Part shown: positions 2,123 to 58,658 of the stretch, piece after piece
How the letters are laid out: each line of letters begins with the position of its first letter
Position numbering within the stretch: the stretch's first letter is position 1
Source of the DNA: a virus
Lineage: Duplodnaviria > Heunggongvirae > Uroviricota > Caudoviricetes
Length of the DNA stretch: 64,000 bases
Virus record (IMG/VR): IMGVR_UViG_3300042890_004094
Strand: one strand, 5' to 3'
Made by a program: the position numbers and the translations under genes
The notes under the pieces: generated by a model
Seen by the model: the letters and a program-made list of their open reading frames with translations, nothing else
Told to the model about the DNA's origin: nothing
Database searches by the model: none

Positions 2123-2133
2123 CATATTTTGTA

Positions 2134-2216
2134 GTGAGCAAGGGAATCGAACCCTATACATCTAAACGTACGCACTGCTTTCCAGGCAGACCCTATCACC
2201 ATCAAGGATTACTCAC
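2134..2216 (-). tRNA. tRNA-Ser(GGA), type II
   Basis: D-arm identical to previous tRNA; anticodon loop CTGGAAA; T-arm GGGTTCGATTCCC. Confidence 0.6.
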
Positions 2217-2226
2217 TATGTTGTTG

Positions 2227-2313
2227 CGGAGAAAACAGGGCTCGAACCTGCACACCAGTTTCCCGATACCGGTTTTCAAGACCGGGGCGATACCAATTAC
2301 GCTTTACTTCTCC
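2227..2313 (-). tRNA. tRNA-Ser(TGA), type II
   Basis: Reverse complement GGAGAAG...CCGGT-CTTGAAA-ACCGG...GGTTCGAGCCC...TTTCTCC. Confidence 0.7.
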
Positions 2314-2324
2314 AAGTAATTTAG

Positions 2325-2408
2325 AAGAGAGTGTGGGACTCGAACCCACAAAGGTATTACCCTTTACTAGTTTTCAAAACTAGGCCTTCATCCAGCCAGT
2401 TACTCTCC
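2325..2408 (-). tRNA. tRNA-Ser(TGA) second copy, type II
   Basis: Reverse complement GGAGAGT...CTAGT-TTTGAAA-ACTAG...GGGTTCGAGTCCCAC...ACTCTCT. Confidence 0.6.
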
Positions 2409-2417
2409 ATATATTTG

Positions 2418-2489
2418 TGATTCCAGAGGGAATCGAACCCCCACCTGATCGTTCGTAGCGACCTATCCTATCCGTTAAACGATGGAACC
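2418..2489 (-). tRNA. tRNA-Arg(ACG)
   Basis: Reverse complement GGTTCCA...GGTCG-CTACGAA-CGATC...GGGGGTTCGATTCCC...TGGAATC. Confidence 0.7.
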
Positions 2490-2496
2490 AATTAAA

Positions 2497-2536
2497 AACA
2501 AAAAACCCACAAACTTTGAAGTCTGTGGGTTTCATA
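2497..2536. terminator. Hairpin with flanking T/A runs (factor-independent terminator candidate; minus-strand reading gives stem then TTTTTTGTTTTT)
   Basis: aacccacaaac-tttgaa-gtctgtgggtt preceded on the plus strand by aaaaacaaaaaa. Confidence 0.5.
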
Positions 2537-2553
2537 CTAATTTTTTATATCAA

Positions 2554-2631
2554 TTATGAACACAACAGAACCTCCCTCAAATTACTTGAGCGACTAGACG
2601 AACTTGACGATGTTGTGATAATTGTTTTCAT
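2554..2631 (-). CDS. Micro-ORF (25 aa, MKTIITTSSSSSSRSSNLREVLLCS) directly fused to the conserved promoter-like motif; may instead be a small RNA
   Basis: ATG immediately follows TTTTAATATATAAATAAT on the minus strand; terminated by the hairpin at 2497-2536; a related copy lies at 3695-3805. Confidence 0.25.
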   Translation of the reverse strand: MKTIITTSSSSSSRSSNLREVLLCS

Positions 2632-2636
2632 ATTAT

Positions 2637-2653
2637 TTATATATTAAAATTTT
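2637..2653 (-). promoter_or_regulatory. Conserved AT-rich promoter-like motif (minus-strand reading AAAATTTTAATATATAA)
   Basis: Member of a TTTTAATATATA family that recurs upstream of at least 10 genes in this window. Confidence 0.45.
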
Positions 2654-2675
2654 ATTCTTTGTTTTTATTTATTTG

Positions 2676-2809
2676 ATAGAAAGGTGGGACTCGAACCCAC
2701 AACCACGGCTTTAACAGAGCGAAGTAACTTATTTCATTGCTACTAAGAGTTTCTTAGAGAAAGACTGACTAAGTATGATTACGTGCTCTACCAATTGAGC
2801 TACTTTCTA
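2676..2809 (-). tRNA. tRNA-like gene interrupted by a ~58-nt insertion (possible intron); anticodon region reads TCATAC (possibly CAT)
   Basis: Canonical 5' half TAGAAAG-TA-GCTC-AATTGGTA-GAGC and canonical 3' half GTGGG-TTCGAGT-CCCAC-CTTTCTA form a perfect 7-bp acceptor, but are separated by about 58 extra nt; no 3' anticodon-stem partner found at the canonical place. Confidence 0.5.
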
Positions 2810-2813
2810 TTTG

Positions 2814-2884
2814 CACGTCGACTAGGGCTCGAACCTAGAACATTGGTTTTGGAGACCAAGATGATACCATTTCACTATCGACGT
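2814..2884 (-). tRNA. tRNA-Trp(CCA)
   Basis: Reverse complement ACGTCGA...TTGGT-CTCCAAA-ACCAA...CTAGGTTCGAGCCCTAG-TCGACGT. Confidence 0.7.
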
Positions 2885-2891
2885 GTTTTGG

Positions 2892-2965
2892 GTTGACAGA
2901 CGGGACTTGAACCCGCAATCCCTTGGTTCACAACCAAGTGCTTTAACCAATTAAGCTACCATCAA
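2892..2965 (-). tRNA. tRNA-His(GTG)
   Basis: Reverse complement TTGATGG...CTTGG-TTGTGAA-CCAAG...GCGGGTTCAAGTCCCGT-CTGTCAA, discriminator C. Confidence 0.65.
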
Positions 2966-2967
2966 AG

Positions 2968-3042
2968 TGACCCCGGTGAGACTCGAACTCACAACCCCCG
3001 CATTAAAAGTGCGGTGCTCTAAACCAATTGAGCTACGAAGTC
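2968..3042 (-). tRNA. tRNA-Lys(TTT)
   Basis: Reverse complement GACTTCG-TAGCTCAATTGG...CCGCA-CTTTTAA-TGCGG...GTGAGTTCGAGTCTCAC-CGGGGTC. Confidence 0.7.
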
Positions 3043-3052
3043 ATTATTATTG

Positions 3053-3124
3053 TGCGGACTGACGGAATCGAACCGACCTCTTAGGGACTTCACTCCTACG
3101 CTAAACCGTCTCAGCTAAATCCGC
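3053..3124 (-). tRNA. tRNA, anticodon uncertain (loop GTGAAGT, possibly GAA/Phe-like; imperfect stems)
   Basis: Reverse complement GCGGATT...GGTTCGATTCC...AGTCCGC has a perfect acceptor and T-loop; the anticodon stem has a mismatch. Confidence 0.5.
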
Positions 3125-3130
3125 AATTTT

Positions 3131-3205
3131 GGGTGAAAGACGGGGATCGAACCCGCGACAACTTGAACCACAATCAAGCACTCTACCACTGAGCTACAAT
3201 CACCA
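3131..3205 (-). tRNA. tRNA-His(GTG)-like second copy (G-1 and C73 present, two T-T mismatches in acceptor stem; possibly degenerate)
   Basis: Reverse complement G-GTGATTG-TAGCTCAGTGGTAGAG...CTTGA-TTGTGGT-TCAAG...GCGGGTTCGATCCCCGT-CTTTCAC-C. Confidence 0.5.
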
Positions 3206-3211
3206 TGTTTG

Positions 3212-3284
3212 TGGACCCTCAGGGAATCGAGCCCTGTCCTTTGGATTTTCAGTCCAACGTACGCACCAGCTATACGAAAGGTCC
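3212..3284 (-). tRNA. tRNA-Phe(GAA)
   Basis: Reverse complement GGACCTT...TTGGA-CTGAAAA-TCCAA...CAGGGCTCGATTCCCTG-AGGGTCC. Confidence 0.65.
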
Positions 3285-3294
3285 ATTATATTTG

Positions 3295-3367
3295 CACAAG
3301 CCAAGGGAGTCGAACCCTTTCCATCCGAGGTTTTGGAGACCTGGTGCATACCATTATGCTGACCTGT
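3295..3367 (-). tRNA. tRNA-Trp(CCA)-like second copy (one mismatched pair in anticodon stem)
   Basis: Reverse complement ACAGGTC...CAGGT-CTCCAAA-ACCTC...AAGGGTTCGACTCCCTT-GGCTTGT; D-loop AATGGTAT shared with the other Trp gene. Confidence 0.5.
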
Positions 3368-3376
3368 ATATATTTG

Positions 3377-3469
3377 AAGAAAGAAGAGTATCGAAACTCT
3401 TAGGGGATATCTCCACGACTAGCCTACCTCTCGGATTCGAACCGAGACCTCTTCAACCTGACTTTCTTT
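3377..3469 (-). tRNA. Aberrant 93-nt tRNA-like element (candidate Ser-CGA type II tRNA with unusually long variable region, or a tRNA remnant)
   Basis: Perfect 7-bp acceptor AAGAAAG/CTTTCTT; internal CTCGG-TTCGAAT-CCGAG stem-loop and a second T-arm-like AAGAG-TTTCGATA-CTCTT; does not fold canonically. Confidence 0.35.
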
Positions 3470-3471
3470 TG

Positions 3472-3544
3472 TGATCCCGGTGGGGCTCGAACCCACAACC
3501 TTCTGATTAAAAGTCAGAAGCTCCACCAATTGAGCTACGAAATC
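3472..3544 (-). tRNA. tRNA-Lys(TTT) second copy
   Basis: Reverse complement GATTTCG-TAGCTCAATTGGTGGAGC...TCTGA-CTTTTAA-TCAGA...GTGGGTTCGAGCCCCAC-CGGGATC. Confidence 0.65.
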
Positions 3545-3549
3545 ATTAG

Positions 3550-3622
3550 TTCCCCCGCCGGGAGTCGAACCCGGCCCCATAGGTTAAAAGCCTATTGCCT
3601 ACTACCAGTTTGCTACGAGGGA
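3550..3622 (-). tRNA. tRNA-Lys(TTT) third copy
   Basis: Reverse complement TCCCTCG...ATAGG-CTTTTAA-CCTAT...GGCCGGGTTCGACTCCCGGC-GGGGGA. Confidence 0.6.
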
Positions 3623-3631
3623 TTATAAAAT

Positions 3632-3670
3632 AAAAAAACCCGAACTTTTTTATAAGTTCGGGTTTACGTT
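3632..3670. terminator. Strong hairpin with flanking A/T runs (bidirectional factor-independent terminator candidate upstream of the tRNA array)
   Basis: aaaaaaacccgaacttttttataagttcgggtttacgttt. Confidence 0.6.
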
Positions 3671-3694
3671 TATGCTTTATTCTCTTTTATGACA

Positions 3695-3805
3695 TTATCC
3701 TATAATAACATCTTCTTTTGAGAACGACATACTCATACATCCGAACTTGTGGCTAAACCACTTGAACGACTTACTAAAGCTTGTATGTTTGAAATTTGTT
3801 CTCAT
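3695..3805 (-). CDS. Micro-ORF (36 aa, MRTNFKHTSFSKSFKWFSHKFGCMSMSFSKEDVIIG), a related copy of 2554..2631; may be a small RNA
   Basis: ATG fused to TTTTAATATATATAACA on the minus strand, followed by the 3632-3670 terminator. Confidence 0.25.
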   Translation of the reverse strand: MRTNFKHTSFSKSFKWFSHKFGCMSMSFSKEDVIIG

Positions 3806-3807
3806 TG

Positions 3808-3826
3808 TTATATATATTAAAAGTTT
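3808..3826 (-). promoter_or_regulatory. Conserved promoter-like motif (minus-strand AAACTTTTAATATATATAA)
   Basis: Same motif family as 2637-2653. Confidence 0.45.
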
Positions 3827-7100: not shown

Positions 7101-7422
7101 AAGTTAAGGAAACAACTGAGTTTACTATTGTTACATCTTGTTGTTGCTCTGTAGTGGTTGTTCCGAAAGTTTCTCTTGCAATAACACGGTAGTCTCCTGC
7201 AACTAATCCATTGATAGTTGTAGAATTTGTTGTTGCAAATGGTGTATCTGTATTGGGTAATTTATAGATGATGTACTGAATACTTCCACCAACAATAGTA
7301 TTGGTTGTATTAAATGTTAAACTACCATTACCTGAACAAGTTTCATTGGTAGTTGCTACTGAAAGGTTGAACCCAAAACAAAATTGGGTCATAAAAAAGA
7401 TAAGATAAATTAGGCTTTTCAT
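4141..7422 (-). CDS. Large secreted Asn/Thr-rich repeat protein with N-terminal signal peptide and C-terminal type-B T9SS sorting domain (gliding-motility-associated C-terminal domain)
   Basis: N-terminus MKSLIYLIFFMTQFCFGF; C-terminus ...FFTPNNDGYNDYWRIKD...YDRYGKII...GWDGTYNG...YWFVA...; many C-x-N Ig-like repeats. Confidence 0.8.
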   Translation of the reverse strand: MKSLIYLIFFMTQFCFGFNLSVATTNETCSGNGSLTFNTTNTIVGGSIQYIIYKLPNTDTPFATTNSTTINGLVAGDYRVIARETFGTTTTEQQQDVTIVNSVVSLTYNIQTLNQACSNTSTITVNTLTGTPASYEIFNGPLLFPSQSSNTFSNLPIGVYKIRVFDNCGIGVVTTFTTVQNTTGITIGQPQITQLSNCNLVSVTNTLTAATGTVIGYPLNITYTILPPGGVPIILNSTLNSGGLTQQNLVQNMTNYINQTFSYSISITDACNSTYSSTNFVVNNGINLTNTTTRLDCNKNFFTFNLSNFYPPYTINFNSFPTGFNPLVFNDSYPGPYNQNSVSFGNTTLPTPIGTYDATITDSCGNTKNISFTIINRPPIPSVTGSHNGCLTTTGKINISIPGYIITTGLVTSAPSDYPFTLPHNITSLINNGTIILNPVPLGNYIIELTNTCNDILTPITVVVPAYVDKGLSNSIRNGCDLNTSAVKIESLNSKLTSIIITAAPSTFNFNLPLNVSYNIAPDGIFYMNNLPAGNYTFIGTDECNLTNTTNIILQGYTITSSNFSLVPNCGSFDIALDFVSNGTSNETFWLQKLIDPVTNTWGNPSTNLVYTDGTIPNTNNSIVLINNTTNFNFSSNGDFRIVRSFLSFQNGSDWNSTDVNNADKNCIEILEPLSYNESLEFIDVYRLPCSTNGALDVFVEASGTAPLTYTLIQKNGLPFFFDNGTSNTFSNLDPAIYLFQIEDNCGNIVNRFFDVSILESFILINNPSDLLQCKTIITNNETFNLSQQNSVILGTQIVSNYTITYYTTLSDAQSGTNQITNLVSFNPSINPQLIYAKIILNSLPNCYELRTFNLIVGKIPNLNLSQNYLNCTTNPTIIDATSNNLSSTTYIWSNGETTPSISITDIGITNLTVTATNTYNGLACSNSQSINVIISGPPVIESIEISDWTARENTITVITSGNGTFEYSLDNVTYQNENYFDNLTTGLYTVYVRDKANCGITSQVIWLLYYDKFFTPNNDGYNDYWRIKDSENEPDFKVIIYDRYGKIITSFNSTSQGWDGTYNGNQIFSNDYWFVAYRNDGRIHKGHFTLKR

Positions 7423-7485
7423 ATTATAAACTATTAATTACAAATATACAAATATATTTTAAAATACAATAATTTATAAACATAT

Positions 7486-9638: not shown

Positions 9639-9875
9639 AATATTTATTTTTAATAATTTCTAAAAAAAATACCTTTTTCATCTATTTTCTATATTTAATA
9701 TCAAGGTAGTTCACTGTTTTTCATAAAAGGTATTAGAAAATTCATTTACCAGCTACTTACTACCATAAACACTAACTATAACTATGTGACCAAAACTTAT
9801 TCTATAACAGGTCAGTTGTAGTAGCTCATTATTTATTGTGCAAATATACAATAAAGTTTCAATTTAAAAAATATA

Positions 9876-9894
9876 TTTTAATATATAGTTTATG
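9876..9894 (+). promoter_or_regulatory. Conserved promoter-like motif TTTTAATATATAGTTTATG fused to the start codon
   Basis: The 13-mer TATATAGTTTATG, including the ATG, is identical at 9882-9894, 28096-28108, 46307-46319 and, on the minus strand, at 11908-11920. Confidence 0.5.
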
Positions 9895-11565
9895 AAATAC
9901 TTAAAATTATACGAAGGTTTTGAATCTGATAGGATTAGTGCAATACTTTCATTTCTAAATAAAAAGATAAAGAGTGATTATCCAGCAAGAGAGTTTTTAA
10001 AAGTATTAAAAATACTTGCTGATAAATTTGATTTCCCACTAAGTACATTGAGTGATAAAGAAATACAATACCTATCAGTAAATAAAGCTTTAGCTGTTGG
10101 TAAAGGTGAAGAAGCAATGAACCCATCTGGTATTTATTGTATTAAGTATTGGTTTTCATTAGAAAAAGGTTATTTATGTAGTACTGGAACTGGAAATAAA
10201 ACTATGGACTATAATAAGTATAATTCTTATAGTGGTGTTATGATGAGTAATGGTGAAGGTTTAGATCAATCTCATTTAGCTTACTTGACTAGAGAATATA
10301 ATATAAGTGGTGTTATTACTCCGACTAGATTAGGAGATTTAAGAACTGGTGATAAAGTAGTAATGGTTTGTGGTGATGATTTCAATGGAGATCCTGCTTA
10401 TTTAACTTTTGGTGAAATATATGCCGATAATAGAAGAAATGATGATGAAATTCAATATTATTTTTATCAAAATGATCATGAAGGTTCAGATCCTGGTTCA
10501 ACTAGAAATAATATTACATTACCAGATAGATATAATCTTTATGCGGGTAATGCAGCATATCAATATGCTTGGTCATTGGGAAGTTCAGACGATCCATCAG
10601 ATGATCATTGTATGATACATAAAGTAATAATTGATGAAAACCCATTAAGATTTAAAGATGAAGATTTAGATAAAATAAATAAAACAGAAGAATCTGTTTG
10701 GGATTTCAATTTACCATTAGATGGAACTACTTTGGAAGAATGGAATAACAGAAAAACAGGAACTTTTAATAAAGTAAATAAAGAAGCAAACTTTGCAATC
10801 GTTCTTTTTCTCGATGATATAATAATTAAAAATGTTGATGATACTACATCTGATATTATAAAAAGAAGAAAATCTGGTAGAAAAGACGCATTAGCTTTAA
10901 AGAAACCAGAGGATATTAGAAAAGAAAATGTTGAAAGGTATTTAACTACTTTATTTAAAAAATTAGGAATTGAACAAGATAAACAAGAATTTAAAAATCT
11001 TAACTCAGTTGTTTTATCATCAATTATAGGAGATTATTTTATCATTGCACTTTATAATAGTAGTGCTTATATAGATAGATTATCAGACTTTATTACTTAT
11101 TTGTATAGACTTATGTCAGATAGTGAAGATTCATATAATTTTGAAAAAACATATGAATTGTTTAAGACTATTAAGAAAAGACGTTTAAAACAAACTACTG
11201 CTTACTCTAATGGTATTAAAGTTATTAAAGATAGTGATAATCAAAATACAGAAAGAATGTCTAATGTAATTGACAGAATAACTAATATAGGTCAAATTTT
11301 ATCAAATTCAATTAAAAATAGAAATATAGAAACTATTGAAGATCTTAAATCAATACAAGTTAGATTAGCATCATTATATGAATTAGTACAAGATGATATT
11401 TTTATACTTTCTAGAAATACTAAAAATGTTCTTATAAACTTAGATGGTGATACTTCTACATTAAAAGTAATTATGAGTAGATTCAGATATAGTGAAGAAG
11501 AGTATAATAGTGATATTAAAAGATTAGATAAACTTGAAAAGGTATTTAAAGATCTTTTAAGATAA
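9892..11565 (+). CDS. Hypothetical protein (557 aa), N-terminus MKYLKLYEGF
   Basis: Long ORF; shares the MKYLK-x-YE-x-F N-terminal motif with several other ORFs. Confidence 0.6.
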   Translation: MKYLKLYEGFESDRISAILSFLNKKIKSDYPAREFLKVLKILADKFDFPLSTLSDKEIQYLSVNKALAVGKGEEAMNPSGIYCIKYWFSLEKGYLCSTGTGNKTMDYNKYNSYSGVMMSNGEGLDQSHLAYLTREYNISGVITPTRLGDLRTGDKVVMVCGDDFNGDPAYLTFGEIYADNRRNDDEIQYYFYQNDHEGSDPGSTRNNITLPDRYNLYAGNAAYQYAWSLGSSDDPSDDHCMIHKVIIDENPLRFKDEDLDKINKTEESVWDFNLPLDGTTLEEWNNRKTGTFNKVNKEANFAIVLFLDDIIIKNVDDTTSDIIKRRKSGRKDALALKKPEDIRKENVERYLTTLFKKLGIEQDKQEFKNLNSVVLSSIIGDYFIIALYNSSAYIDRLSDFITYLYRLMSDSEDSYNFEKTYELFKTIKKRRLKQTTAYSNGIKVIKDSDNQNTERMSNVIDRITNIGQILSNSIKNRNIETIEDLKSIQVRLASLYELVQDDIFILSRNTKNVLINLDGDTSTLKVIMSRFRYSEEEYNSDIKRLDKLEKVFKDLLR

Positions 11566-11910
11566 TAGATATAAATCATGTTGTCTCGCTTCTAACTCTG
11601 TTAAAAGATGAACACACTCTCTTCTTAGATCCTTTAACTTTAAAAAGTCTTCCGTATTATTAGTTTTATTTAATCGTGAATTAAGATTATCAATTTCAAC
11701 CGTTATTAAATCTTTCATTAAACTCATTTCCTTACTAACCTCTTCTTTTAAATCAAGTGCTAATGATTTAAAATACGGATTCGCCATGATAACACTTTTA
11801 TAATTATTAGAACTAAAGTTCTTCATAAGTCTTTTGAGTGTATCAATAGCTTGTTCCTCAGTAGTTGATAGATGTAGCTTATCGAGATATTCTAACAAGG
11901 TCAATTTCAT
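11557..11910 (-). CDS. Hypothetical protein (117 aa)
   Basis: ORF preceded by the conserved motif. Confidence 0.5.
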   Translation of the reverse strand: MKLTLLEYLDKLHLSTTEEQAIDTLKRLMKNFSSNNYKSVIMANPYFKSLALDLKEEVSKEMSLMKDLITVEIDNLNSRLNKTNNTEDFLKLKDLRRECVHLLTELEARQHDLYLLS

Positions 11911-11921
11911 AAACTATATAT
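11908..11921 (-). promoter_or_regulatory. Conserved motif (minus-strand ATATATAGTTTATG) fused to the start codon; contains the TAG stop of smpB
   Basis: Reverse complement of cataaactatatat. Confidence 0.45.
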
Positions 11922-12345
11922 TTCGTTGCATCTCTCTAGTAAGGTCTCTTTCTTTGATAGTTTCACGTTTATCCCAAGTTTTCTTACCTTTGGCAACAGC
12001 TATTTTAATTTTAATTCTATTATTCTTAATAAACATACCAAGTGGAATTGCAGTTATGCCTTTATCTTCCAGTTTTCTTTTGATACGAGTGATTTCTTTT
12101 TTATTTAAAAGAAGTTTCTTATCACGATTTTCTTCGTGTTTATCTAAAGTATGTGCTGATTTATAAGCTGCAACTTTTAGATTTTTAATCCACACTTCAT
12201 TATCTTTTATGTAAATGAACGCATCAACCATGGTAACATTTCCCATTCTAACGGACTTTACTTCACTACCAACCAATATTATTCCGCAGTCAAATTCCTC
12301 TATAAAAGTATATTCGTAACGGGCTCTTCTATTTAATGCTATCAT
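11914..12345 (-). CDS. smpB: SsrA-binding protein SmpB
   Basis: 143 aa; ALNRRARYEY...GSEVKS...IAVAKGKK..DKR..IKERD pattern aligns with bacterial SmpB. Confidence 0.85.
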   Translation of the reverse strand: MIALNRRARYEYTFIEEFDCGIILVGSEVKSVRMGNVTMVDAFIYIKDNEVWIKNLKVAAYKSAHTLDKHEENRDKKLLLNKKEITRIKRKLEDKGITAIPLGMFIKNNRIKIKIAVAKGKKTWDKRETIKERDLTREMQRNI

Positions 12346-14520: not shown

Positions 14521-14678
14521 TACTTTTCTTTTTTAGTGTTTAAATTTAAAACTTCTGATATGTGATCATTTAATGATCTTCTAACAGAAGAATCAGAAGA
14601 AGTCTGACTTTCATCTTTAACTTCTTCTGATTCTTCTGTTGTTTTTATTTCTTTGTCTTTCATTTCTTTGTATTTCAT
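14520..14678 (-). CDS. Small acidic Ser-rich protein (52 aa) translationally coupled between the sigma factor and the nucleotidyltransferase-like gene; not in the ORF track (below size cutoff)
   Basis: MKYKEMKDKEIKTTEESEEVKDESQTSSDSSVRRSLNDHISEVLNLNTKKEK; TAATG overlaps at both ends. Confidence 0.4.
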   Translation of the reverse strand: MKYKEMKDKEIKTTEESEEVKDESQTSSDSSVRRSLNDHISEVLNLNTKKEK

Positions 14679-15280
14679 TAGTCTAAAAACATTTCATCTA
14701 TCTGTTCAAACTCTTTTTTGGATTGATCCATAAGTATTTGACGTCCATTCCTTATTTGACTTTTAATTGTACTCAAGTTTTTTCCTAATTTATCTGCGAT
14801 GTCTTTGTATTGCATTCTTTCTATCTCTCTCATTATAATAACTGTTTTATACGGCTCTTTTAACTCGTCGATATGTTTCTTCATTACATCAGCTTTCTGT
14901 GTAAAAACATCATAAATGGCCTCATTACTTTCAGTTTCTTGTAAGAAATCTTTTAAGGTAGTACCTTCATCATCAAACTCAATGTCTAACGATATGTTTC
15001 TGTTTTCAAGTTTCTTGTCTTGAAGTGATAAATTTTTTGCAATTGTGAATAACCACGTTGAGAATTGTGATTTTTCTTTTTGATACATTTCTATTTTTTC
15101 CAGAGCTATCATAAATGAGTCTGTCGAAATGTCTTCTGCTTTTTGTACATCATTACAAATTCTTGATGTAAAGTAGATTAGTTTTGGATAATACTTTTGA
15201 TAAAGTGTTGCGAAGTCTTTACCTGTTCTTTCTTTAAAGATTTTCTCTTGTTCAGAGAAGGGAGCTGTGCTTAATTCCAT
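14678..15280 (-). CDS. Sigma-70 family RNA polymerase sigma factor (regions 2 and 4 only, ECF-like size)
   Basis: 200 aa; region 2 ...FSTWLFTIAKNL..., region 4 HTH ...YKDIADKLGKNLSTIKSQIRNGRQIL. Confidence 0.8.
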   Translation of the reverse strand: MELSTAPFSEQEKIFKERTGKDFATLYQKYYPKLIYFTSRICNDVQKAEDISTDSFMIALEKIEMYQKEKSQFSTWLFTIAKNLSLQDKKLENRNISLDIEFDDEGTTLKDFLQETESNEAIYDVFTQKADVMKKHIDELKEPYKTVIIMREIERMQYKDIADKLGKNLSTIKSQIRNGRQILMDQSKKEFEQIDEMFLD

Positions 15281-15388: not shown

Positions 15389-15406
15389 ATATATATATTA
15401 AAAGTT
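15389..15406 (-). promoter_or_regulatory. Conserved promoter-like motif (minus-strand AACTTTTAATATATATAT) about 110 nt upstream of the sigma-factor start
   Basis: Same motif family. Confidence 0.4.
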
Positions 15407-17958: not shown

Positions 17959-17987
17959 AATTATTATATTTCTACAAATATACGAAG

Positions 17988-18224: not shown

Positions 18225-18260
18225 TTAACAAATATACAAAATAAAACCTAAAGAATAAAC

Positions 18261-18280
18261 AAAATTTAATATATACTAAA
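18261..18280 (+). promoter_or_regulatory. Conserved promoter-like motif AAAATTTAATATATACTAAA, about 18 nt upstream of the ATG
   Basis: Same motif family. Confidence 0.4.
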
Positions 18281-18297
18281 AAATCAAAAATCATAAA

Positions 18298-21200: not shown

Positions 21201-21504
21201 GACTATAAATGTTGGTGATAAAAGTTCTATTATAGTTCCACTAAATATTTATTTCAAACTTAATTCATTAGATAATAGTCAAACAGGATTAAATTATCAA
21301 TATATTGATCTTAATAATTCAACAAGAACTGTAAAACATGTTAAGAAAATTAAATTTTTCCTAGAAAATGAGTCAGAGAATAGACCATTTATATTTACAT
21401 TAAAATTTAACTTAAATAGAAATAAAGTTATTGTAAGAAAGTTCAACTCAACCGGTGGTAGTCCAGCATATATAGATGATTGGTCAACATCAAGTAAAAA
21501 ATAA
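18298..21504 (+). CDS. Large hypothetical protein (1068 aa), probably structural
   Basis: Long ORF with Asn/Ser/Thr-rich composition; first gene of a plus-strand block of large proteins. Confidence 0.7.
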   Translation: MVQSSFPKVADQIITYNKNIVEILSKINSLTTTTDSSVTLQVYDENGILRNFTLPSFTSLKADIDRLNNNINSLYSIDAAGALIQTSTQNKYKKIITVDLNRDPTPIGSLGALSTFRSSPNWFFDSLMDPMVSVELDLSGKIEDNVRKCLIRRYIVEFAKNADGSFTTLGQSALNSYNQLFRGNPNIIISEFENWYTTTTGLLNPTNPKYDEQMFDLEPNNLLYDGQFSVLRIQEDRLNRKLWYVLDTLDYLVVDANSTRRLSIGDEVIINSEKTSTRYKILEVSTAESNPRIRVERLEGIEPIPVGIGTLKVYSSVIYTKRVRVSVGYNERNVLFVKPVNADNNLVAKKWSLGTGYYTNDLRLTSDSSANGLSMEQFYIDYVYDYGVVLQDLVAKKTPNSLAGTPGSPTLALDNFKVVQINKHLTDTPDSNLVKQKHNYQLSLKSEIQQLQEAIISRNKASKFTKFKSDSAKKQADLEVGELTNKKDSKSKLLASVTQEVIDLSKDPKNKVTPKFSVRGFWPIPSAVVTTGTKPQEIVQFRVQYRYTSKDGREAPVDTFTITDSQSKASFSNWTEFKTDARKREYNTSTGEYTWAIEDVTNADTPNINQIDIPIQSNERVDIRIKSISEVGWPESAVESDWSEIITIDFPDDLNTIANENDFILTAATKEDLKISMNSELSAKGLDNHLADTVTVNNVTFHHDAKKILSGFQDENGVSLDLYTYIQNLVDRISSLEEKITRAKGELQIIILRNNQEYIVNNGSETTFNVECEDYLTLFNGQGAPTGRVYENNIYVIKDFVMKIKNNAKESLLGLLSNRTYLQSTAVYNTQAPQSFWVNSQDELLTNDVIETGQTRTHLDNQFIWQMNYDSITQNTVAKLSENIGNTFDNATVNSNSITNVLSTSDYNVGYNEPAILKFIGNNKSLLDPSKWNDVTVSIASTTKFLTTIHPVVKSLENIQENNSDKVKTINVGDKSSIIVPLNIYFKLNSLDNSQTGLNYQYIDLNNSTRTVKHVKKIKFFLENESENRPFIFTLKFNLNRNKVIVRKFNSTGGSPAYIDDWSTSSKK

Positions 21505-28026: not shown

Positions 28027-28063
28027 TTAAAAACGACCCATTTTTAAATGAAAGAGCAAAAAG

Positions 28064-28090
28064 AACCCTGGAGAAATCTGGGGTTTTTTT
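28064..28090 (+). terminator. Weak hairpin followed by a T7 run
   Basis: aaccc-tggagaaatctg-gggtt-ttttt. Confidence 0.4.
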
Positions 28091-28108
28091 ATTTATATAT
28101 AGTTTATG
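28091..28108 (+). promoter_or_regulatory. Conserved motif ATTTATATATAGTTTATG fused to the start codon
   Basis: Identical 13-mer TATATAGTTTATG. Confidence 0.5.
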
Positions 28109-28567: not shown

Positions 28568-28589
28568 AAAAAAGTTGTATCTTTGAAGT

Positions 28590-28846: not shown

Positions 28847-29039
28847 TTAGTATATATTCCAATTTTTAATATGTATAACCCCATTTGAATCTATTGTAGA
28901 ACCTTTATCCTCAATCTCTTCTTCAAAGAAATCAGTATTAAGAACATCATCAATTGTTTTATCAGATAATTCTACTTGTGGTATATCTACTACAAATGCT
29001 TCAAAAAGTTTTAAGTATTTCACTTTTTATATATTATTT

Positions 29040-30224: not shown

Positions 30225-30971
30225 TTAATATGTTAATATTTTTAAAACAACATCTTCAACAAACTCTTTCATATCTGTTGGGTCAATTGTTGCAATCGTG
30301 TCTTTTGATGAATGACAATTAAATAACATTGAGTAATCTAAATATGTATTTTCATCCCATTTGACATTTGTTTTACCCTCTAAAACAGGAGGTAAAGGAT
30401 TTATAACTACTGAGTCAATTCCATTTCTTCTAAATGTAACCGAATCATTGAAAGGTGTTCTAACTATTGGACAATCAAAAAGAGTTTTAATATGATCTGT
30501 TAAAGGTCCTGGATAATCTCCAATAAAAAAGTGTTTACCACCTTTACCACTTAACTCTAAATTAAGTACCCACTCTATATCACCAAACTTACCATTATTG
30601 ATTAGTTCTGATGCTCTATTAGAGCCTACACCACCAACTTCTTCACCATCTAATAGAATTACATTCATTGTTGGTAAAAGCTTCTTAATCATCATCGCAT
30701 TGATTACTGATGCACTATTATCATTCGCATTATCTATATTAGGATTACTTACATCATGATGTGCAACAACCATTCTGTTTGATGATCCTTGTAGAATAAG
30801 ATTATACCCTGTTACCTCAGCAGTATAGAATTTATCTAATTCATATTTAATACCTTCTGATTCTAAAAGTTCCATTAGAAATTGAACTCTTGGAGGTGGC
30901 GTTTGTGAATTATTATCATAGATAGTTCCTTCATTTCTTACTTTACAGAAGTCGTATATTTTATTGTACAT
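30225..30971 (-). CDS. M28/M42-like metallopeptidase-fold protein (putative)
   Basis: VAHHDVSNP...NANDNSASV...LLDGEEVGG resemble the His/Asp, Asp and Glu-Glu metal ligands of M28/M42 peptidases. Confidence 0.5.
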   Translation of the reverse strand: MYNKIYDFCKVRNEGTIYDNNSQTPPPRVQFLMELLESEGIKYELDKFYTAEVTGYNLILQGSSNRMVVAHHDVSNPNIDNANDNSASVINAMMIKKLLPTMNVILLDGEEVGGVGSNRASELINNGKFGDIEWVLNLELSGKGGKHFFIGDYPGPLTDHIKTLFDCPIVRTPFNDSVTFRRNGIDSVVINPLPPVLEGKTNVKWDENTYLDYSMLFNCHSSKDTIATIDPTDMKEFVEDVVLKILTY

Positions 30972-31002
30972 AATTGTATATATTAAAAAATTATAAATAA
31001 AA

Positions 31003-31037
31003 ACACCCCTATTAGAAAATAGGGGTGTGATTTTTTA
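31003..31037. terminator. Strong bidirectional hairpin terminator candidate
   Basis: acacccctatt-agaaa-ataggggtgt followed by gatttttt and preceded by an A-rich run. Confidence 0.6.
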
Positions 31038-37065: not shown

Positions 37066-37083
37066 TAAACTATATATTAAATA
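37066..37083 (-). promoter_or_regulatory. Conserved motif (minus-strand ATTTAATATATAGTTTAT) 18 nt upstream of the start of 36490..37047
   Basis: Same motif family; shows the motif is not always fused to the ATG. Confidence 0.45.
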
Positions 37084-38316: not shown

Positions 38317-38340
38317 ATAAATTTATATATAGATAAAAAC
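38317..38340 (+). promoter_or_regulatory. Conserved motif AATAAATTTATATATAGATAAAAAC upstream of the 1911-aa gene
   Basis: Same motif family. Confidence 0.4.
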
Positions 38341-46298: not shown

Positions 46299-46319
46299 AA
46301 ATTTAATATATAGTTTATG
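46299..46319 (+). promoter_or_regulatory. Conserved motif AAATTTAATATATAGTTTATG fused to the start codon
   Basis: Identical 13-mer TATATAGTTTATG. Confidence 0.5.
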
Positions 46320-51504: not shown

Positions 51505-51521
51505 AAAATATATACTATTAT

Positions 51522-52094
51522 ATGAATATAAAATATGGTAAAATAGATATAGATATAGATAATTTGTGTGCACCAGATGTAGTATCATTTTTTAGTTGGA
51601 GAGATGACTTCTTTAAAATACCTAATTCTGAAAAGTTTGATGTTTATCTACATGGTAGCTTTTTACATAAATTACTTGATAATGTTGGTAATCCTAATGA
51701 TATTGATATTATTTTGACGGGAAATCATAATATAGAGGACATTGAAAATGTAATTTACCAAGGTATAAAAATAGGTATAGAGAAGTATGGTATCTTAATT
51801 GATATTCGTTGGGATGATAAGATAAACTATCTTTCTCCCGGATTAGCAAGTATTTGCGGATTTGATACATCTAAATCACTTGAAAATTCCTCTAATTCTG
51901 TAAACAATTATGAATTTTATGTACATGGTGATAAGTTGATAATTGATGGTAAAAACTGGAGGGGATATAAATCTACAATAAAGTTAGCAGATAGTTTATA
52001 CAAAGTTACCTACCTTGGAGAAGTAAGTGAAAAACACACAGCTAAAGCGAAAAGTGGTTATATTTACAAAGAACCACTTTTAATTAACTATTAA
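51522..52094 (+). CDS. Small nucleotidyltransferase-motif protein, paralogue 2 (tandem duplicate)
   Basis: Near-identical N-terminal 110 aa and C-terminal SGYIYKEPLLINY to paralogue 1; upstream DNA also duplicated. Confidence 0.65.
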   Translation: MNIKYGKIDIDIDNLCAPDVVSFFSWRDDFFKIPNSEKFDVYLHGSFLHKLLDNVGNPNDIDIILTGNHNIEDIENVIYQGIKIGIEKYGILIDIRWDDKINYLSPGLASICGFDTSKSLENSSNSVNNYEFYVHGDKLIIDGKNWRGYKSTIKLADSLYKVTYLGEVSEKHTAKAKSGYIYKEPLLINY

Positions 52095-55679: not shown

Positions 55680-56012
55680 CTAAAAGTTGGGTTTATCTAA
55701 GTAGTATGTATTGTGTTCAGTAATAAATTCAAAGTTATCGTGTAATGTTTGACAATATCCATTAAATGAGTGAACATCTTCTTGTGTTAGATTAAACCAT
55801 TCACCTCTAACTCTTTTACTTCTAAATATTCTGTGAAGACTTGATTCTATTTTAGTTCCCCATTTTGATGTAAATGAGTCAACTAAATAAAGATCTGCTG
55901 CATTTCCAGTCTTAAACTCTTTAAGACGTTTTTCAATCTTTCTTTTAGTGAAACCTATTTTATGTAATTTTTCACCTTCTATATCCGCACAAATTAAATA
56001 TATGTTTGTCAT
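55680..56012 (-). CDS. T5orf172/GIY-YIG-like domain protein
   Basis: 110 aa; NIYLICADIEGEKLHKIGFTKRKIEKRLKEFKTGN...GEWFNL resembles the T5orf172 (MUG113) domain. Confidence 0.55.
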   Translation of the reverse strand: MTNIYLICADIEGEKLHKIGFTKRKIEKRLKEFKTGNAADLYLVDSFTSKWGTKIESSLHRIFRSKRVRGEWFNLTQEDVHSFNGYCQTLHDNFEFITEHNTYYLDKPNF

Positions 56013-56055
56013 AGAAGTATATATTACTTCTTCTAAACCCTCTTTTTTAATTTTT

Positions 56056-57677: not shown

Positions 57678-58630
57678 TACTTTAATTTAATATGTACATA
57701 TAACCAAAATGAGTGTGGTTTAACACTAATCAGAACTTTTTGACCCCATTTTTTAGTCATAACCCAAGTAGTGAAATTGTTTTTAATATTCAATAATTCA
57801 CCTTCATCTAATTTACCATTATCCCATTTACCAATACCATAGTATCCAAATGAAATTACTTTATCAGAAATTGTTGGTTTTGATTCTTTCTCAAAATATC
57901 CAGGTTTAAAATCTTTCATATCGGTTTTAATCTTACCAAGAAGTAACATATCAGTATTTGATATATTTACTATTTCCTTTTTCAAAGAAGCTGCAGATTT
58001 AGATTCAATAGTTACTAACCATCTTACAACTGAAGGAGTTAGTTTGAATTGTCCAATTGGATTTAATTTATCATAAGTAACACCATATTCAAATGTACCA
58101 TCACATTTAATACCAAAGTAAAGACCACATTCATTTTTACCATAATCAATCATATCTAAATATCTTGTCAATGATTTGAATCTACTAAATACCGATTTAA
58201 CATCTTCTGATGATAGGTCTGGATAATAATAAAATAATAAGAAATGAGAAGGACATTTTTCAACATTTGAACCTTTCTCTTTTTGACCTAGTGCGGTCAA
58301 TGATTTTAAAAATGAATTAAAGATTGATTTACCAGCAATTGTAATTTCTGCAGACTCATTGATTTCAGTTGAAACTAAAATCTCTGGTTCTTTTTCTTCA
58401 ATACCATTTTGAAGATAAGTATCAATTTGTAATTTAATGTCATCTTGTTCAGATTGCTCTAATGTATTTATGGCATTAGACAATCTTATATTAGAAGTGA
58501 TATCCCCTAAAAATCGATTTACTATGTTTTTAACATATTCATCATCATACAAAGACTCAACCCACTCTCCAAGTGAGTTGAAGTCTTGTAATTCAGATTC
58601 TTTAATAAACTCTAAATACTTTTTTATCAT
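57677..58630 (-). CDS. Hypothetical protein (317 aa), N-terminus MIKKYLEFIKE
   Basis: ORF, 1-nt overlap. Confidence 0.55.
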   Translation of the reverse strand: MIKKYLEFIKESELQDFNSLGEWVESLYDDEYVKNIVNRFLGDITSNIRLSNAINTLEQSEQDDIKLQIDTYLQNGIEEKEPEILVSTEINESAEITIAGKSIFNSFLKSLTALGQKEKGSNVEKCPSHFLLFYYYPDLSSEDVKSVFSRFKSLTRYLDMIDYGKNECGLYFGIKCDGTFEYGVTYDKLNPIGQFKLTPSVVRWLVTIESKSAASLKKEIVNISNTDMLLLGKIKTDMKDFKPGYFEKESKPTISDKVISFGYYGIGKWDNGKLDEGELLNIKNNFTTWVMTKKWGQKVLISVKPHSFWLYVHIKLK

Positions 58631-58658
58631 AGAGTATATATTAAAAATATATTTTACT

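What the first reader, a model, noticed from the sequence alone, without database searches (positions are those of the whole stretch)
9876..9894. Conserved TTTTAATATATAG(TTT)ATG motif upstream of at least ten genes, often fused to the start codon
The 13-mer TATATAGTTTATG, including the ATG, is identical at 9882, 28096, 46307 and, on the minus strand, 11908. Close variants (TTTTAATATATA plus a 3-7-nt spacer, or a longer one, before the ATG) occur at 2637, 3808, 15389, 18261, 37066 and 38317. This looks like an element-specific AT-rich promoter, comparable in logic to the T4 late TATAAATA, giving leaderless or very short-leader mRNAs. There are no Shine-Dalgarno sequences anywhere, which is consistent with a Bacteroidota translation system. 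The phage-encoded sigma factor at 14678..15280 is an obvious candidate reader.
Basis: partly seen in the sequence, partly recalled or inferred. Interest (0 to 1): 0.7.

Follow-up and report, generated by a model that had tools for sequence, protein, structure and literature searches.

The report
Start-codon-fused promoter of huge phages
An 8-base AT-rich box (AATATATA) placed exactly four bases before the start codon of many genes in this huge Bacteroidota phage and its relatives is most likely a phage promoter that makes leaderless messages. I found no earlier description of it, and it also drives two short leader ORFs that may gate the phage's tRNA genes.

Summary
TATATAGTTTATG occurs four times (0 expected). 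AATATATA is the top 8-mer upstream of genes, and 14 of its 16 copies lie in the 8.8% of the window that is intergenic.

The window comes from a Mahaphage-clade huge phage of Bacteroidota. The motif is not element-specific. It recurs in the 634-735 kb relatives and in more than 100 IMG/VR contigs, and it is kept before orthologues at 43-49% identity.

Spacing to the start codon is bimodal: 4 nt (sharp peak) or about 19-28 nt. The host sigma-A box TAnnTTTG, mapped at -12..-5, shows the same 4-nt peak. The fifth base after the motif is usually A. The box therefore behaves as a -10-region element with +1 at the A of ATG, giving a leaderless mRNA or a 15-24 nt leader.

No -35 element exists. That fits a T4-late-type promoter (WATAAATA, one base different) better than the ECF sigma in the window.

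By-product: two motif copies drive short ORFs rich in Phe/Lys/His/Trp or Ser/Arg codons. Each is followed by a terminator, a covarying antiterminator and tRNA genes for those same amino acids.

The parts
9876..9894 (+). TTTT-AATATATA-GTTT-ATG; the box is 4 nt before the ATG of the 557-aa ORF 9892-11565, which heads a divergent unit
   Evidence: orthologue in L058 keeps it, and the LR745206 orthologue has AATATATAatgtGTG
11908..11922 (-). AATATATA-GTTT-ATG; start of the 117-aa ORF 11557-11910. The box overlaps the last codons and TAG stop of the upstream ORF 11914-12345
   Evidence: L058 orthologue keeps AATATATAatatATG
28093..28108 (+). Variant TTATATATA-GTTT-ATG, lying 3 nt after the intrinsic terminator 28059-28090; start of ORF 28106-28567
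46301..46319 (+). ATTT-AATATATA-GTTT-ATG; start of the 1547-aa ORF 46317-50960
   Evidence: orthologues at 40-69% aa identity (L111, L024, L067, L037) carry the identical 17-mer
58628..58646 (-). TTTT-AATATATA-CTCT-ATG; start of the 317-aa ORF 57677-58630
   Evidence: L005 orthologue (43% aa identity) keeps TTTTAATATATAtaatATG
29021..29036 (-). TAATATATA-AAAA-GTG; start of the 58-aa ORF 28847-29023 (N-terminus MKYLKLFE, a paralogue of the N-terminus of the 9892 gene)
30969..30988 (-). TTTT-AATATATA-CAATT-ATG (5-nt spacer) just after terminator 31003-31028; start of the M28-peptidase ORF 30225-30971
   Evidence: LR745206 orthologue has AATATATAcaatATG
56010..56026 (-). TAATATATA-CTTCT-ATG; start of the 110-aa ORF 55680-56012
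   Evidence: L024 orthologue keeps TAATATATAccttATG
51507..51524 (+). AATATATA-CTATTAT-ATG (7-nt spacer); start of the 190-aa ORF 51522-52094
18264..18275 (+). ATTT-AATATATA, 22 nt before the ATG of the 1068-aa structural-module ORF 18298-21504 (long-leader class)
   Evidence: LR745206 orthologue keeps TTAATATATA 21 nt upstream while the flanks diverge
38320..38331 (+). Variant TTTATATATA(G), 21 nt before the ATG of the 1911-aa ORF 38353-44088. It is the only promoter-like element on the + strand of an 80-nt divergent spacer
   Evidence: L113 orthologue (49% aa identity) has AATATATA 22 nt upstream
37071..37082 (-). ATTT-AATATATA-GTTTATC, 23 nt before the ATG of the phosphohydrolase ORF 36490-37047. 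The 12 bases following match the start-codon-fused copies, but the ATG is replaced by ATC
15392..15403 (-). TTTT-AATATATA, 111 nt upstream of the sigma-factor ORF
   Evidence: conserved with its flanks in LR745206
14678..15280 (-). ECF-type sigma factor (regions 2 and 4), one candidate reader of the box
   Evidence: Pfam Sigma70_r2 6.6e-13 and r4_2 4.5e-11; PHROG 1740; TIGR02985/TIGR02937; orthologues in Mahaphage and Lak genomes
3803..3822 (-). TTTT-AATATATA-TAACA-ATG; drives leader ORF 1
3695..3805 (-). Leader ORF 1 (36 aa, MRTNFKHTSFSKSFKWFSHKFGCMSMSFSKEDVIIG; F+K+H+W = 14 of 35). It contains AAGTTCGG (3741-3748), complementary to the terminator 5' arm
3632..3665 (-). Intrinsic terminator AAACCCGAACTT-ATAAAA-AAGTTCGGGTTT plus a T-run, between leader ORF 1 and the tRNA-Lys/Trp/Phe/His block (3622..2813)
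2629..2649 (-). TTTT-AATATATA-AATAAT-ATG; drives leader ORF 2
2554..2631 (-). Leader ORF 2 (25 aa, MKTIITTSSSSSSRSSNLREVLLCS; S+R = 11 of 24)
2500..2532 (-). Intrinsic terminator AAACCCACAGAC..GTTTGTGGGTTT plus a T-run, between leader ORF 2 and tRNA-Arg(acg)/Ser(tga)x2/Ser(gga) (2489..2131)
7441..7456 (-). Second promoter class for comparison: two overlapping host-type sigma-A -7 boxes TATATTTG before the T9SS-CTD protein ORF 4141-7422. Others lie at 17975-17982(-), 18229-18236(-; then 4 nt and the ATG of a 78-aa ORF), 35264-35271(-), 9841-9848(-) and 28578-28585(+; then 4 nt and ATG 28590)

Best explanation
(T)TT-AATATATA is the single recognition element of a promoter class without a -35 element. 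It is used by a clade of huge and jumbo Bacteroidota phages: the environmental Mahaphages and many IMG/VR relatives.

The 8-mer occupies the position of the -10/'-7' box, about -12 to -5. Transcription starts at the fifth nucleotide downstream, normally an A. In about a third of units that A is the A of the ATG, so the mRNA is leaderless or has 1-3 extra nucleotides. In the rest the transcript has an A-rich leader of 15-24 nt, the usual 5'-UTR length in Bacteroidota. The trough at intermediate lengths fits what translation initiation can use.

The enzyme is most likely host core RNA polymerase carrying a phage-encoded sigma-like factor. On promoter architecture, a T4 gp55/gp33-type apparatus is favoured over the ECF sigma at 14678-15280.

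Shown here: the motif, its positional and orientation bias, its spacing law, its conservation before orthologues, and the absence of a -35 element. Inferred: that it is a promoter, where +1 lies, that the mRNAs are leaderless, and who reads it.
For: (1) Positional bias. 14 of 16 AATATATA copies are intergenic (p=1.6e-13). All high-scoring copies point at a gene start. It is the top upstream 8-mer in the window and among the top four in LR745206, LR756502, LR756501 and LR756504.

(2) Spacing law. The test used 1.1 Mb of related loci and excluded the 17-mer used for retrieval. Of 417 AATATATA copies, 56 have a start codon opening an ORF of at least 60 aa exactly 4 nt downstream, 19 at 5 nt and 8 at 6 nt. 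There is a trough at 7-15 nt and a broad peak at 19-28 nt. The reverse complement and four AT-matched 8-mers give flat distributions.

(3) Same geometry as the host promoter. TAnnTTTG also peaks at 4-5 nt before start codons. It is mapped at -12..-5 in Flavobacterium psychrophilum (PMC9723704), which places +1 on the A of ATG. Host 5'-UTR mode and median are 23-24 nt, matching the second peak.

(4) Composition step. In 117 long-leader instances, A content rises from about 46% at positions 1-4 to 74% at position 5 and stays high.

(5) Transcription-unit boundaries. 28 of 281 motif instances follow a terminator-like hairpin within 60 nt, against 12 of 638 control gene starts. In the window these are terminators 28059-28090 and 31003-31028. 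The motif is the only candidate signal on its strand in the divergent spacers before 9892, 18298 and 38353.

(6) Conservation before orthologues at 43-49% aa identity while the flanks diverge.

(7) At an orthologous site (leader ORF 2) the box is replaced by a host-type TATATTTG box in LR756502 and L265. The two elements are therefore interchangeable.

(8) No -35 element. The box differs at one position from the T4-like late consensus WATAAATA (PMC1524935). The lineage is classed with T4-like 'group 2' jumbo phages, which lack an RNAP and encode sigma factors plus a gp33 orthologue (PMC7824862). T4-like genes (UvsX, RnlA-like ligase, PhoH, terminase, portal) follow the motif.
Against: No transcription start site has been mapped for any of these phages, so every step beyond sequence statistics is inference.

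Gene starts are ORF-based. GTG starts occur at the 4-nt spacing (29023, and the LR745206 orthologue of 9892), which is unusual for leaderless translation.

In T4 the box lies at -13..-6. That would put +1 on the U of AUG, so the geometry here must be 1 nt shorter.

The genes served are functionally mixed, not late-only.

No gp55- or gp33-like protein was found in the window. T4 gp55 tblastn did not visibly reach this clade.

The base after the box is often C or G, and the N4 stretch is T-rich. This hints at additional recognition that is not explained.
Confidence: 0.7

Rival explanations
1. One reading: the box is the promoter read specifically by the phage ECF-type sigma factor encoded at 14678-15280.
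For: The sigma gene carries the box 111 nt upstream, as expected for an autoregulated ECF sigma, and this is conserved in LR745206. Sigma orthologues at 37-75% identity are present in the four environmental Mahaphages that use the box. It is the only transcription protein found in the window.
Against: ECF sigmas recognise bipartite -35/-10 promoters, and this protein has a clear region 4. No -35 element is conserved, either across 55 diverse instances or across 46 instances from the sigma-bearing clade. The box has no 'CGT'-type ECF -10 (compare SM6 in PMC9723704). Lak phages have a 27%-identical homologue but do not use the box. No sigma homologue occurs in 1.09 Mb of motif-bearing loci, though this is weak evidence because only about 2 would be expected.
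Confidence: 0.3
2. The box is a translation-initiation signal, a substitute for Shine-Dalgarno pairing in an SD-less host. It would act on the mRNA, not as a promoter.
For: It lies at a fixed, very short distance from the start codon in many genes. The host phylum lacks SD sequences (PMC6847099 listed).
Against: - Spacing is bimodal (4 nt or 19-28 nt), which no ribosome-contact signal would tolerate.
- The box is absent from most operon-internal genes: only 16 of 50 genes have it, mainly at the heads of units.
- It directly follows terminators.
- It is the only signal on its strand in divergent spacers.
- It is interchangeable with a host promoter box at an orthologous site.
- A host promoter box shows the same 4-nt spacing.
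Confidence: 0.07
3. The box marks an RNA-processing site. A phage or host endoribonuclease would cut polycistronic transcripts just upstream of AUG and so create leaderless mRNAs.
For: Some copies are operon-internal with tiny intergenic gaps (11908-11922 and 46301-46319). The predicted product, a leaderless mRNA, would be the same.
Against: Copies at the heads of divergent units and directly after terminators have no upstream transcript to process. The long-leader class would gain nothing from cleavage. The positional equivalence to the sigma-A box is unexplained under this model.
Confidence: 0.06
4. The box is read by the unmodified or phage-modified host sigma-A holoenzyme, as in Thermus phage P23-45. 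There, phage proteins displace sigma region 4 and favour promoters that lack a -35 element.
For: The box sits where the sigma-A -7 box sits. Its use across many phages would be easy to explain with a host reader. There is precedent in PMC5758890, and crAss-like phi14:2 middle promoters are read by host RNAP.
Against: AATATATA lacks the TTTG that defines the Bacteroidota -7 box; only 3 of 6 specified positions match. Bona fide TAnnTTTG promoters coexist in the same genomes as a separate class. Exact-match hits in 596 Gb of bacterial genomes are scattered over all phyla, and only 28% open an ORF, against 75% in viral contigs. Hosts therefore do not appear to use it.
Confidence: 0.15
5. The box is the promoter of a phage-encoded RNA polymerase, either T7-like single-subunit or phiKZ-like multisubunit, encoded outside the window.
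For: It is a compact AT-rich motif close to +1. The ...TATAG ending of the commonest variant recalls T7-type promoters (from memory).
Against: No RNAP was found in the window. The lineage is classed among jumbo phages without an RNAP (PMC7824862). Only about 11 bp are conserved, and the 4 nt before +1 vary, unlike the contiguous promoters of single-subunit RNAPs.
Confidence: 0.05

Closest known systems
T4-type late promoter (TATAAATA at -13..-6; gp55 sigma, gp33, gp45 clamp)
   Same: A single 8-bp AT-rich box in the -10 region with no -35 element. The consensus in T4 relatives is WATAAATA, with lineage variants such as CTAAATA in Aeh1 (PMC1524935). AATATATA differs from it at one position. The phage lineage is grouped with T4-like jumbo phages that carry sigma and gp33 genes (PMC7824862).
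   Different: The sequence is not identical. The inferred position is one nucleotide closer to +1. Many copies are fused to the start codon, whereas T4 late mRNAs have SD-containing leaders (from memory). The genes served include replication and nucleotide-metabolism genes and tRNA leader ORFs. No gp55 or gp33 homologue was identified here.
Bacteroidota sigma-A promoter (-33 TTTG, -7 TAnnTTTG at -12..-5)
   Same: It has the same distance to start codons in the leaderless class. It is interchangeable with the box at an orthologous site. It coexists in the same genomes as a second promoter class.
   Different: The defining TTTG is absent from the box and there is no -33 element. Hosts have only 3.7-5.5% leaderless mRNAs. 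Among box-associated genes in the related loci, about 22% have the start codon at exactly 4 nt and about 32% at 4-6 nt.
Thermus phage P23-45 middle/late promoters
   Same: A phage promoter class lacking a -35 element, favoured because phage proteins disable sigma region 4 (PMC5758890). From memory, many of those transcripts are reported to be leaderless.
   Different: Those are extended -10 (TGTG-TATAAT) promoters read by host sigma-A. The host phylum is different.
crAss-like phage phi14:2 middle promoters
   Same: A conserved phage-specific promoter motif in a Bacteroidota phage group, found before structural genes and often before tRNA genes (bioRxiv 10.1101/2020.03.07.982082).
   Different: That motif is tripartite, with -35- and -10-like blocks, and is transcribed by sigma-70-type holoenzyme. 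Here there is a single block.
Poxvirus late promoter TAAATG (from memory)
   Same: The promoter core overlaps the ATG of the gene it serves.
   Different: It is a eukaryotic virus with its own RNAP and poly(A) leaders. The resemblance is one of logic only.
Leader-peptide transcription attenuators (trp, his, pheA, pheST)
   Same: This applies to the by-product at 2500-3822. It has a short ORF enriched in particular codons, a downstream intrinsic terminator, and an alternative pairing between the ORF and the terminator 5' arm that covaries.
   Different: The genes downstream are tRNA genes for the same amino acids, not biosynthetic or synthetase genes. The leader ORF starts 5-7 nt after the box in the window and most relatives, up to 11 nt in LR745206, so it has a leader of at most a few nucleotides. 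The direction of regulation is unresolved.

Membership tests
T4-type late promoter | 8-bp box TATAAATA (WATAAATA in relatives) | tested here: inconclusive
   AATATATA matches 7 of 8 positions of WATAAATA (PMC1524935). The canonical TATAAATA itself is only weakly enriched upstream of genes here (8 of 35 copies intergenic, p=0.009, against 14 of 16 for AATATATA).
T4-type late promoter | No -35 element | tested here: met
   No information content upstream of the T-tract in 55 non-redundant instances or in 46 clade instances.
T4-type late promoter | Box at -13..-6 relative to a mapped start | not testable with these tools
   No TSS data exist. Spacing and the composition step suggest -12..-5.
T4-type late promoter | Genome encodes a gp55-like sigma and gp33 | tested here: inconclusive
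   None was found among window proteins by Pfam or PHROGs, but the window is roughly a tenth of such a genome. Their presence in the group is a literature statement. T4 gp55 tblastn was uninformative.
T4-type late promoter | Serves late (virion, lysis) genes | tested here: not met
   150 motif-led proteins include terminase, portal, tail fibre and endolysin. They also include RNR, UvsX, PhoH, homing endonucleases and Nudix, plus the tRNA leader ORFs.
Bacteroidota sigma-A promoter | -7 box TAnnTTTG | tested here: not met
   AATATATA lacks TTTG. True TAnnTTTG boxes form a separate class in the window.
Bacteroidota sigma-A promoter | Box position -12..-5 | tested here: met
   Indirect: both boxes peak at 4 nt before start codons. 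The position is taken from PMC9723704.
ECF sigma-dependent promoter | Bipartite -35/-10 with fixed spacer and a CGT-type -10 | tested here: not met
ECF sigma-dependent promoter | The sigma gene is preceded by its own target promoter | tested here: met
   Box at 15392-15403, 111 nt upstream of the sigma ORF, conserved in LR745206.
Single-subunit (T7-like) RNAP promoter | About 18-23 bp contiguous conservation through +1, and a phage-encoded RNAP | tested here: not met
   Only about 11 bp are conserved and the N4 stretch varies. No RNAP is in the window, and the lineage is classed as RNAP-less.
Leaderless genes | -10-type box at a fixed 5-8 nt before the start codon, with ATG predominant | tested here: met
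   Sharp peak at 4 nt after an 8-mer ending at -5. 56 of 58 unbiased instances start with ATG and 2 with GTG.
Leaderless genes | Primary 5' end coincides with the start codon | not testable with these tools
   Needs RNA data.
Leader-peptide attenuator (by-product, 2500-3822) | Short ORF enriched in the regulatory codons | tested here: met
   F+K+H+W = 14 of 35 (p=2e-4) and S+R = 11 of 24 (p=2e-5). The families have 16 and 7 variants.
Leader-peptide attenuator (by-product, 2500-3822) | Terminator plus a mutually exclusive antiterminator | tested here: met
   For leader family 1 a terminator was found in 14 of 16 variants, and in 14 of 14 the ORF holds a 6-8 nt complement of the 5' arm at a conserved site, with two independently covarying lineages. 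A truncated-transcript fold makes the pairing. For leader family 2 a comparable covarying pairing was seen only by eye in a three-sequence alignment and was not counted.
Leader-peptide attenuator (by-product, 2500-3822) | Controls amino-acid biosynthesis or synthetase genes | tested here: not met
   The downstream genes are tRNA-Phe/His/Lys/Trp or tRNA-Arg/Ser.

The most novel reading that the evidence does not exclude
A large clade of huge Bacteroidota phages runs much of its gene expression through one 8-bp box. A phage sigma-like factor would read the box and place +1 on the A of AUG, so leaderless translation would be a main route of expression in a phylum that lacks Shine-Dalgarno pairing. 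The same box also launches nearly leaderless 'leader peptides' whose Phe/Lys/His/Trp or Ser/Arg codons sense the supply of the tRNAs encoded just downstream. That would be leader-peptide transcription attenuation controlling tRNA genes, which I could not find described.
Probability: 0.35. Interest if true: 0.85.

Novelty: new variant of a known kind. Interest (0 to 1): 0.62.

Why it matters
Nothing is known experimentally about how the largest known phages (Mahaphage/Lak clade) organise transcription.

- A simple rule (AATATATA, four bases, then the start codon) gives a testable promoter model. It also gives a way to fix gene starts and transcription units in hundreds of uncultured genomes, and a marker for recognising fragments of this clade.
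- If the mRNAs are leaderless, these phages rely far more on leaderless translation than their hosts do (3.7-5.5% of host mRNAs). This bears on how translation starts in the SD-less Bacteroidota.
- The interchangeable host-type and phage-type boxes suggest a two-class temporal programme.
- The leader-ORF/terminator/tRNA modules suggest that phage tRNA supply is feedback-regulated by translation. This would be a new use of attenuation.

Tried and rejected
- Search for a -35 element. Information profiles of 55 diverse and 46 clade-restricted instances showed nothing beyond a T-tract.
- Host-promoter idea. An exact 17-mer scan of 596 Gb of bacterial and archaeal genomes gave single hits scattered over all phyla. 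Only 28% open an ORF, against 75% in viral contigs. A few hits are probably misbinned phage contigs.
- Late-only regulon. Rejected by a PHROG scan of 150 motif-led proteins.
- tRNA genes as direct targets of the box. Rejected: each copy in the tRNA region is followed by a small ORF and a terminator first.
  - Pfam, PHROG and NCBIfam scans of essentially all window proteins found only the ECF sigma.
  - T4 gp55 tblastn found about 2,000 T4-like records; none of the 60 rows shown, nor the ten commonest organism names, belongs to this clade.
  - 100 kb of PTm1 annotation names no sigma.
  - The sigma is absent from 1.09 Mb of motif loci.
- PTm1 and Lak-A1 do not use the box.
- Literature searches for the motif string, for Bacteroidota or jumbo-phage promoters and for tRNA-operon attenuation found nothing specific.
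- Solved-structure search for the 1068-aa protein: no match.
Full report
**What the window is**

- GC content is 26-32% apart from the tRNA-rich first 4 kb.
- Thirteen tRNA genes lie on the minus strand at 2131-3622.
- No gene has a Shine-Dalgarno sequence (0 of 50).
- A 1093-aa protein carries a type-IX-secretion C-terminal domain, which points to a Bacteroidota host.
- Other genes include TyrRS, NAD-dependent ligase, SbcC, Sir2, a large glycosyltransferase and an ECF-type sigma factor.
- The 1068-aa protein at 18298-21504 is 74% and 68% identical to proteins of the 634- and 642-kb uncultured phages LR745206 and LR756502. Identity is lower to the 735-kb phage, the Lak megaphages and Tenacibaculum phage PTm1, where the homologue sits next to neck and head-completion genes.

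The window therefore comes from a Mahaphage-clade huge phage. Al-Shayeb et al. assign that clade to Bacteroidetes hosts.

**The observation**

The 13-mer TATATAGTTTATG is present four times at the stated coordinates, with none expected. The variants exist, with small coordinate offsets, and five more copies were missed.

The core is not over-represented in raw number, but it is very unevenly placed. Fourteen of 16 AATATATA copies lie in the 8.8% of the window that is intergenic (p=1.6e-13). AT-matched 8-mers show 0-22%.

An unbiased ranking of 8-mers in the 40 nt before ORFs of at least 100 aa puts AATATATA first, with 9 of 43 genes. In all, 16 of 50 protein genes and two small ORFs have the box upstream, always in the sense orientation.

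**The motif is not element-specific**

In 93 of 123 instances the ATG opens an ORF of at least 60 aa. The same scan of 596 Gb of cellular genomes gave 28%.

Ninety-six of 123 loci form one protein-sharing component that includes the window, by permissive single linkage.

The box ranks among the top four upstream 8-mers in four environmental Mahaphage genomes. It is not used in Lak-A1 or PTm1.

Orthologue checks that were not biased by the retrieval pattern show the box retained while the flanks diverge:
- 55680-56012 against L024.
- 57677-58630 against L005 (43% identity).
- 38353 against L113 (49% identity, same long spacing).
- 11557-11910 against L058.
- 18298 and 30971 against LR745206.

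**The spacing law**

The 17-mer used for retrieval was excluded from this test. In 1.1 Mb of related DNA, 417 AATATATA copies show:
- a sharp peak with a start codon exactly 4 nt downstream (56 cases), falling to 19 at 5 nt and 8 at 6 nt;
- a trough at 7-15 nt;
- a broad second peak at 19-28 nt.

The reverse complement and four AT-matched 8-mers are flat.

The host-type sigma-A box TAnnTTTG, which is also present in these genomes, shows the same 4-5 nt peak. That box was mapped at -12..-5 in Flavobacterium psychrophilum (PMC9723704). An 8-mer followed by four bases therefore puts +1 on the A of ATG. The second peak then corresponds to leaders of 15-24 nt, and host 5'-UTRs have a mode or median of 23-24 nt.

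In the long-leader class, A content jumps from about 46% to 74% at the fifth base after the box and stays high. This is as expected if the transcript, with its A-rich Bacteroidota-type leader, begins there. Among unbiased 4-nt instances, 56 of 58 start with ATG.

**Why a promoter and not a translation or processing signal**

- The box heads divergent units in which nothing else on that strand could serve (9892, 18298, 38353).
- It directly follows intrinsic terminators: 28059-28090 and 31003-31028 in the window, and 10% of instances against 1.9% of control gene starts elsewhere.
- It is missing from most operon-internal genes.
- It tolerates two spacing classes.
- At one orthologous site it is replaced by a host-type TATATTTG box.

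**Who reads it**

There is no -35 element. Only TTT-AATATATA is conserved, followed by a non-T base and a T-rich N4.

The sigma in the window is an ECF type with regions 2 and 4, and such sigmas need bipartite promoters. Its own gene does carry the box, and its orthologues co-occur with box use. It therefore stays a candidate at about 0.3.

The architecture is closer to T4 late promoters. Those are TATAAATA at -13..-6, with the first T often A or T in relatives and lineage variants such as CTAAATA (PMC1524935). AATATATA differs at one position.

PTm1 shows an orientation-specific ATACATA before genes: 17 of 43 copies precede an ORF start, against 3 of 43 for the reverse complement. It differs from the T4-like consensus at the same position.

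Iyer et al. place Lak and PTm1 in the T4-like 'group 2' jumbo phages. These have no RNAP but encode sigma factors and a gp33 orthologue (PMC7824862). T4-like genes follow the box.

I could not find a gp55- or gp33-like gene in the window or reach one by BLAST. The genes served are mixed, so 'late promoter' is too narrow.

**By-product: the tRNA modules**

The two copies in the tRNA region do not abut tRNA genes. Each is followed by a short ORF, a strong terminator and then a tRNA block.

- *Leader 1.* MRTNFKHTSFSKSFKWFSHKFG... is enriched in F, K, H and W (14 of 35, p=2e-4). It precedes tRNA-Lys, Trp, Phe and His genes only.
- *Leader 2.* MKTIITTSSSSSSRSSNL... is enriched in S and R (11 of 24, p=2e-5). 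It precedes tRNA-Arg and three tRNA-Ser genes.

Pattern scans recovered 16 variants of leader 1 and 7 of leader 2, in LR745206, LR756502 and IMG/VR contigs. All have the same tRNA identities downstream, and 15 of 16 leader-1 variants are preceded by the box.

In 14 of 14 leader-1 loci with a detected terminator, the ORF contains a 6-8 nt exact complement of the terminator 5' arm at a conserved place. Two lineages have changed the terminator stem and the leader copy together: TCGAAT/ATTCGA and CCAAGTT/AACTTGG, against the common CCGAAC/GTTCGG.

On a four-sequence alignment the antiterminator is 96.9% paired with 3 compensatory pairs. The terminator is 93.8% paired with 5 compensatory pairs. RNAfold of the transcript truncated before the 3' arm makes this pairing.

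This has the anatomy of leader-peptide attenuation, applied to tRNA genes. Which ribosome position favours read-through is not resolved. I found no description of such a system.

**Verdict**

The box is best read as a clade-wide phage promoter without a -35 element, of T4-late-like design, placed so that many mRNAs are leaderless. All of this rests on sequence statistics and comparative evidence. No start site has been mapped.

Noticed in passing
window 2500-3822 (-); also L121 1388-2794, L248 2368-5017, L249-L270: Two conserved modules of the form box, short ORF, terminator, tRNA cluster. The ORFs are rich in Phe/Lys/His/Trp codons (before tRNA-Lys/Trp/Phe/His) or Ser/Arg codons (before tRNA-Arg/Ser). 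A segment inside the leader-1 ORF is complementary to the terminator 5' arm and covaries with it. This looks like leader-peptide attenuation of tRNA genes.
   Followed up: partly
window 18229-18236 (-) then ATG 18224; 28578-28585 (+) then ATG 28590: Host-type -7 boxes (TATATTTG, TATCTTTG) also sit exactly 4 nt before the ATG of small ORFs (78 aa and 74 aa). Across relatives TAnnTTTG shows the same 4-5 nt peak, so leaderless design is not limited to the phage-type box.
   Followed up: partly
L248 (LR756502) about 2510-2545 and L265, against window 2638-2649: At the orthologous leader-2 site the AATATATA box is replaced by a host-type TATATTTG box in two relatives. One further relative (L267) shows neither box.
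   Followed up: partly
L122/L244 (Tenacibaculum phage PTm1, 1-100 kb): PTm1 does not use AATATATA. It has an orientation-specific ATACATA 12-28 nt before many genes, several right after terminators: 17 of 43 copies against 3 of 43 for the reverse complement. This may be a lineage variant of the same promoter family.
   Followed up: partly
window 9892-11565 (+), 28847-29023 (-); many IMG/VR loci: Many motif-led genes begin MK[YF][IL]K.[FY]E (for example MKYLKLYEGF and MKYLKLFEAF). This is a widespread N-terminal signature or paralogue family of unknown function. The 394-aa ORF 29040-30224 belongs to a family with 7-15 copies per Mahaphage genome.
   Followed up: no
window 4141-7422 (-): A phage-encoded 1093-aa protein with a CHU_C type-IX-secretion signal domain, sitting behind tandem host-type promoters. 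It could be a secreted or surface protein expressed from the phage.
   Followed up: no
window 3367-3374 (-) and 3368-3470: One AATATATA copy ends on the first base of tRNA-Trp (3294-3367), so it cannot work with the proposed geometry. It lies in a 103-nt gap of the tRNA array that has no detected tRNA and may be a decayed tRNA or a chance copy.
   Followed up: no
window 18226-21440: The 1068-aa gene is the only stretch of window 4000-28000 (the only part searched at DNA level) that is similar to a GenBank phage (75.7% to LR745206). It matches PHROG 29329, has no solved-structure relative, and is split into two ORFs in PTm1 next to the neck genes.
   Followed up: partly
L008, L022, L062 (IMG/VR 'GVMAG' contigs); L151, L158, L193, L207 ('Ca. 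Muiribacterium' MAG contigs): Contigs labelled as giant-virus MAGs or binned into a bacterial MAG carry the motif. The MAG contigs have 22-23% GC and several box copies, and one (L158) opens an MKYI-type ORF. They are probably misassigned fragments of this phage clade.
   Followed up: no
window 44148-46289 (+), 55680-56012 (-): There is a weak Pretoxin-HINT match at the C-terminus of a 713-aa protein inside the large structural operon. A 110-aa motif-led ORF has weak homing-endonuclease-like PHROG hits. Homing and HNH endonuclease genes are also among the motif-led genes in relatives.
   Followed up: no
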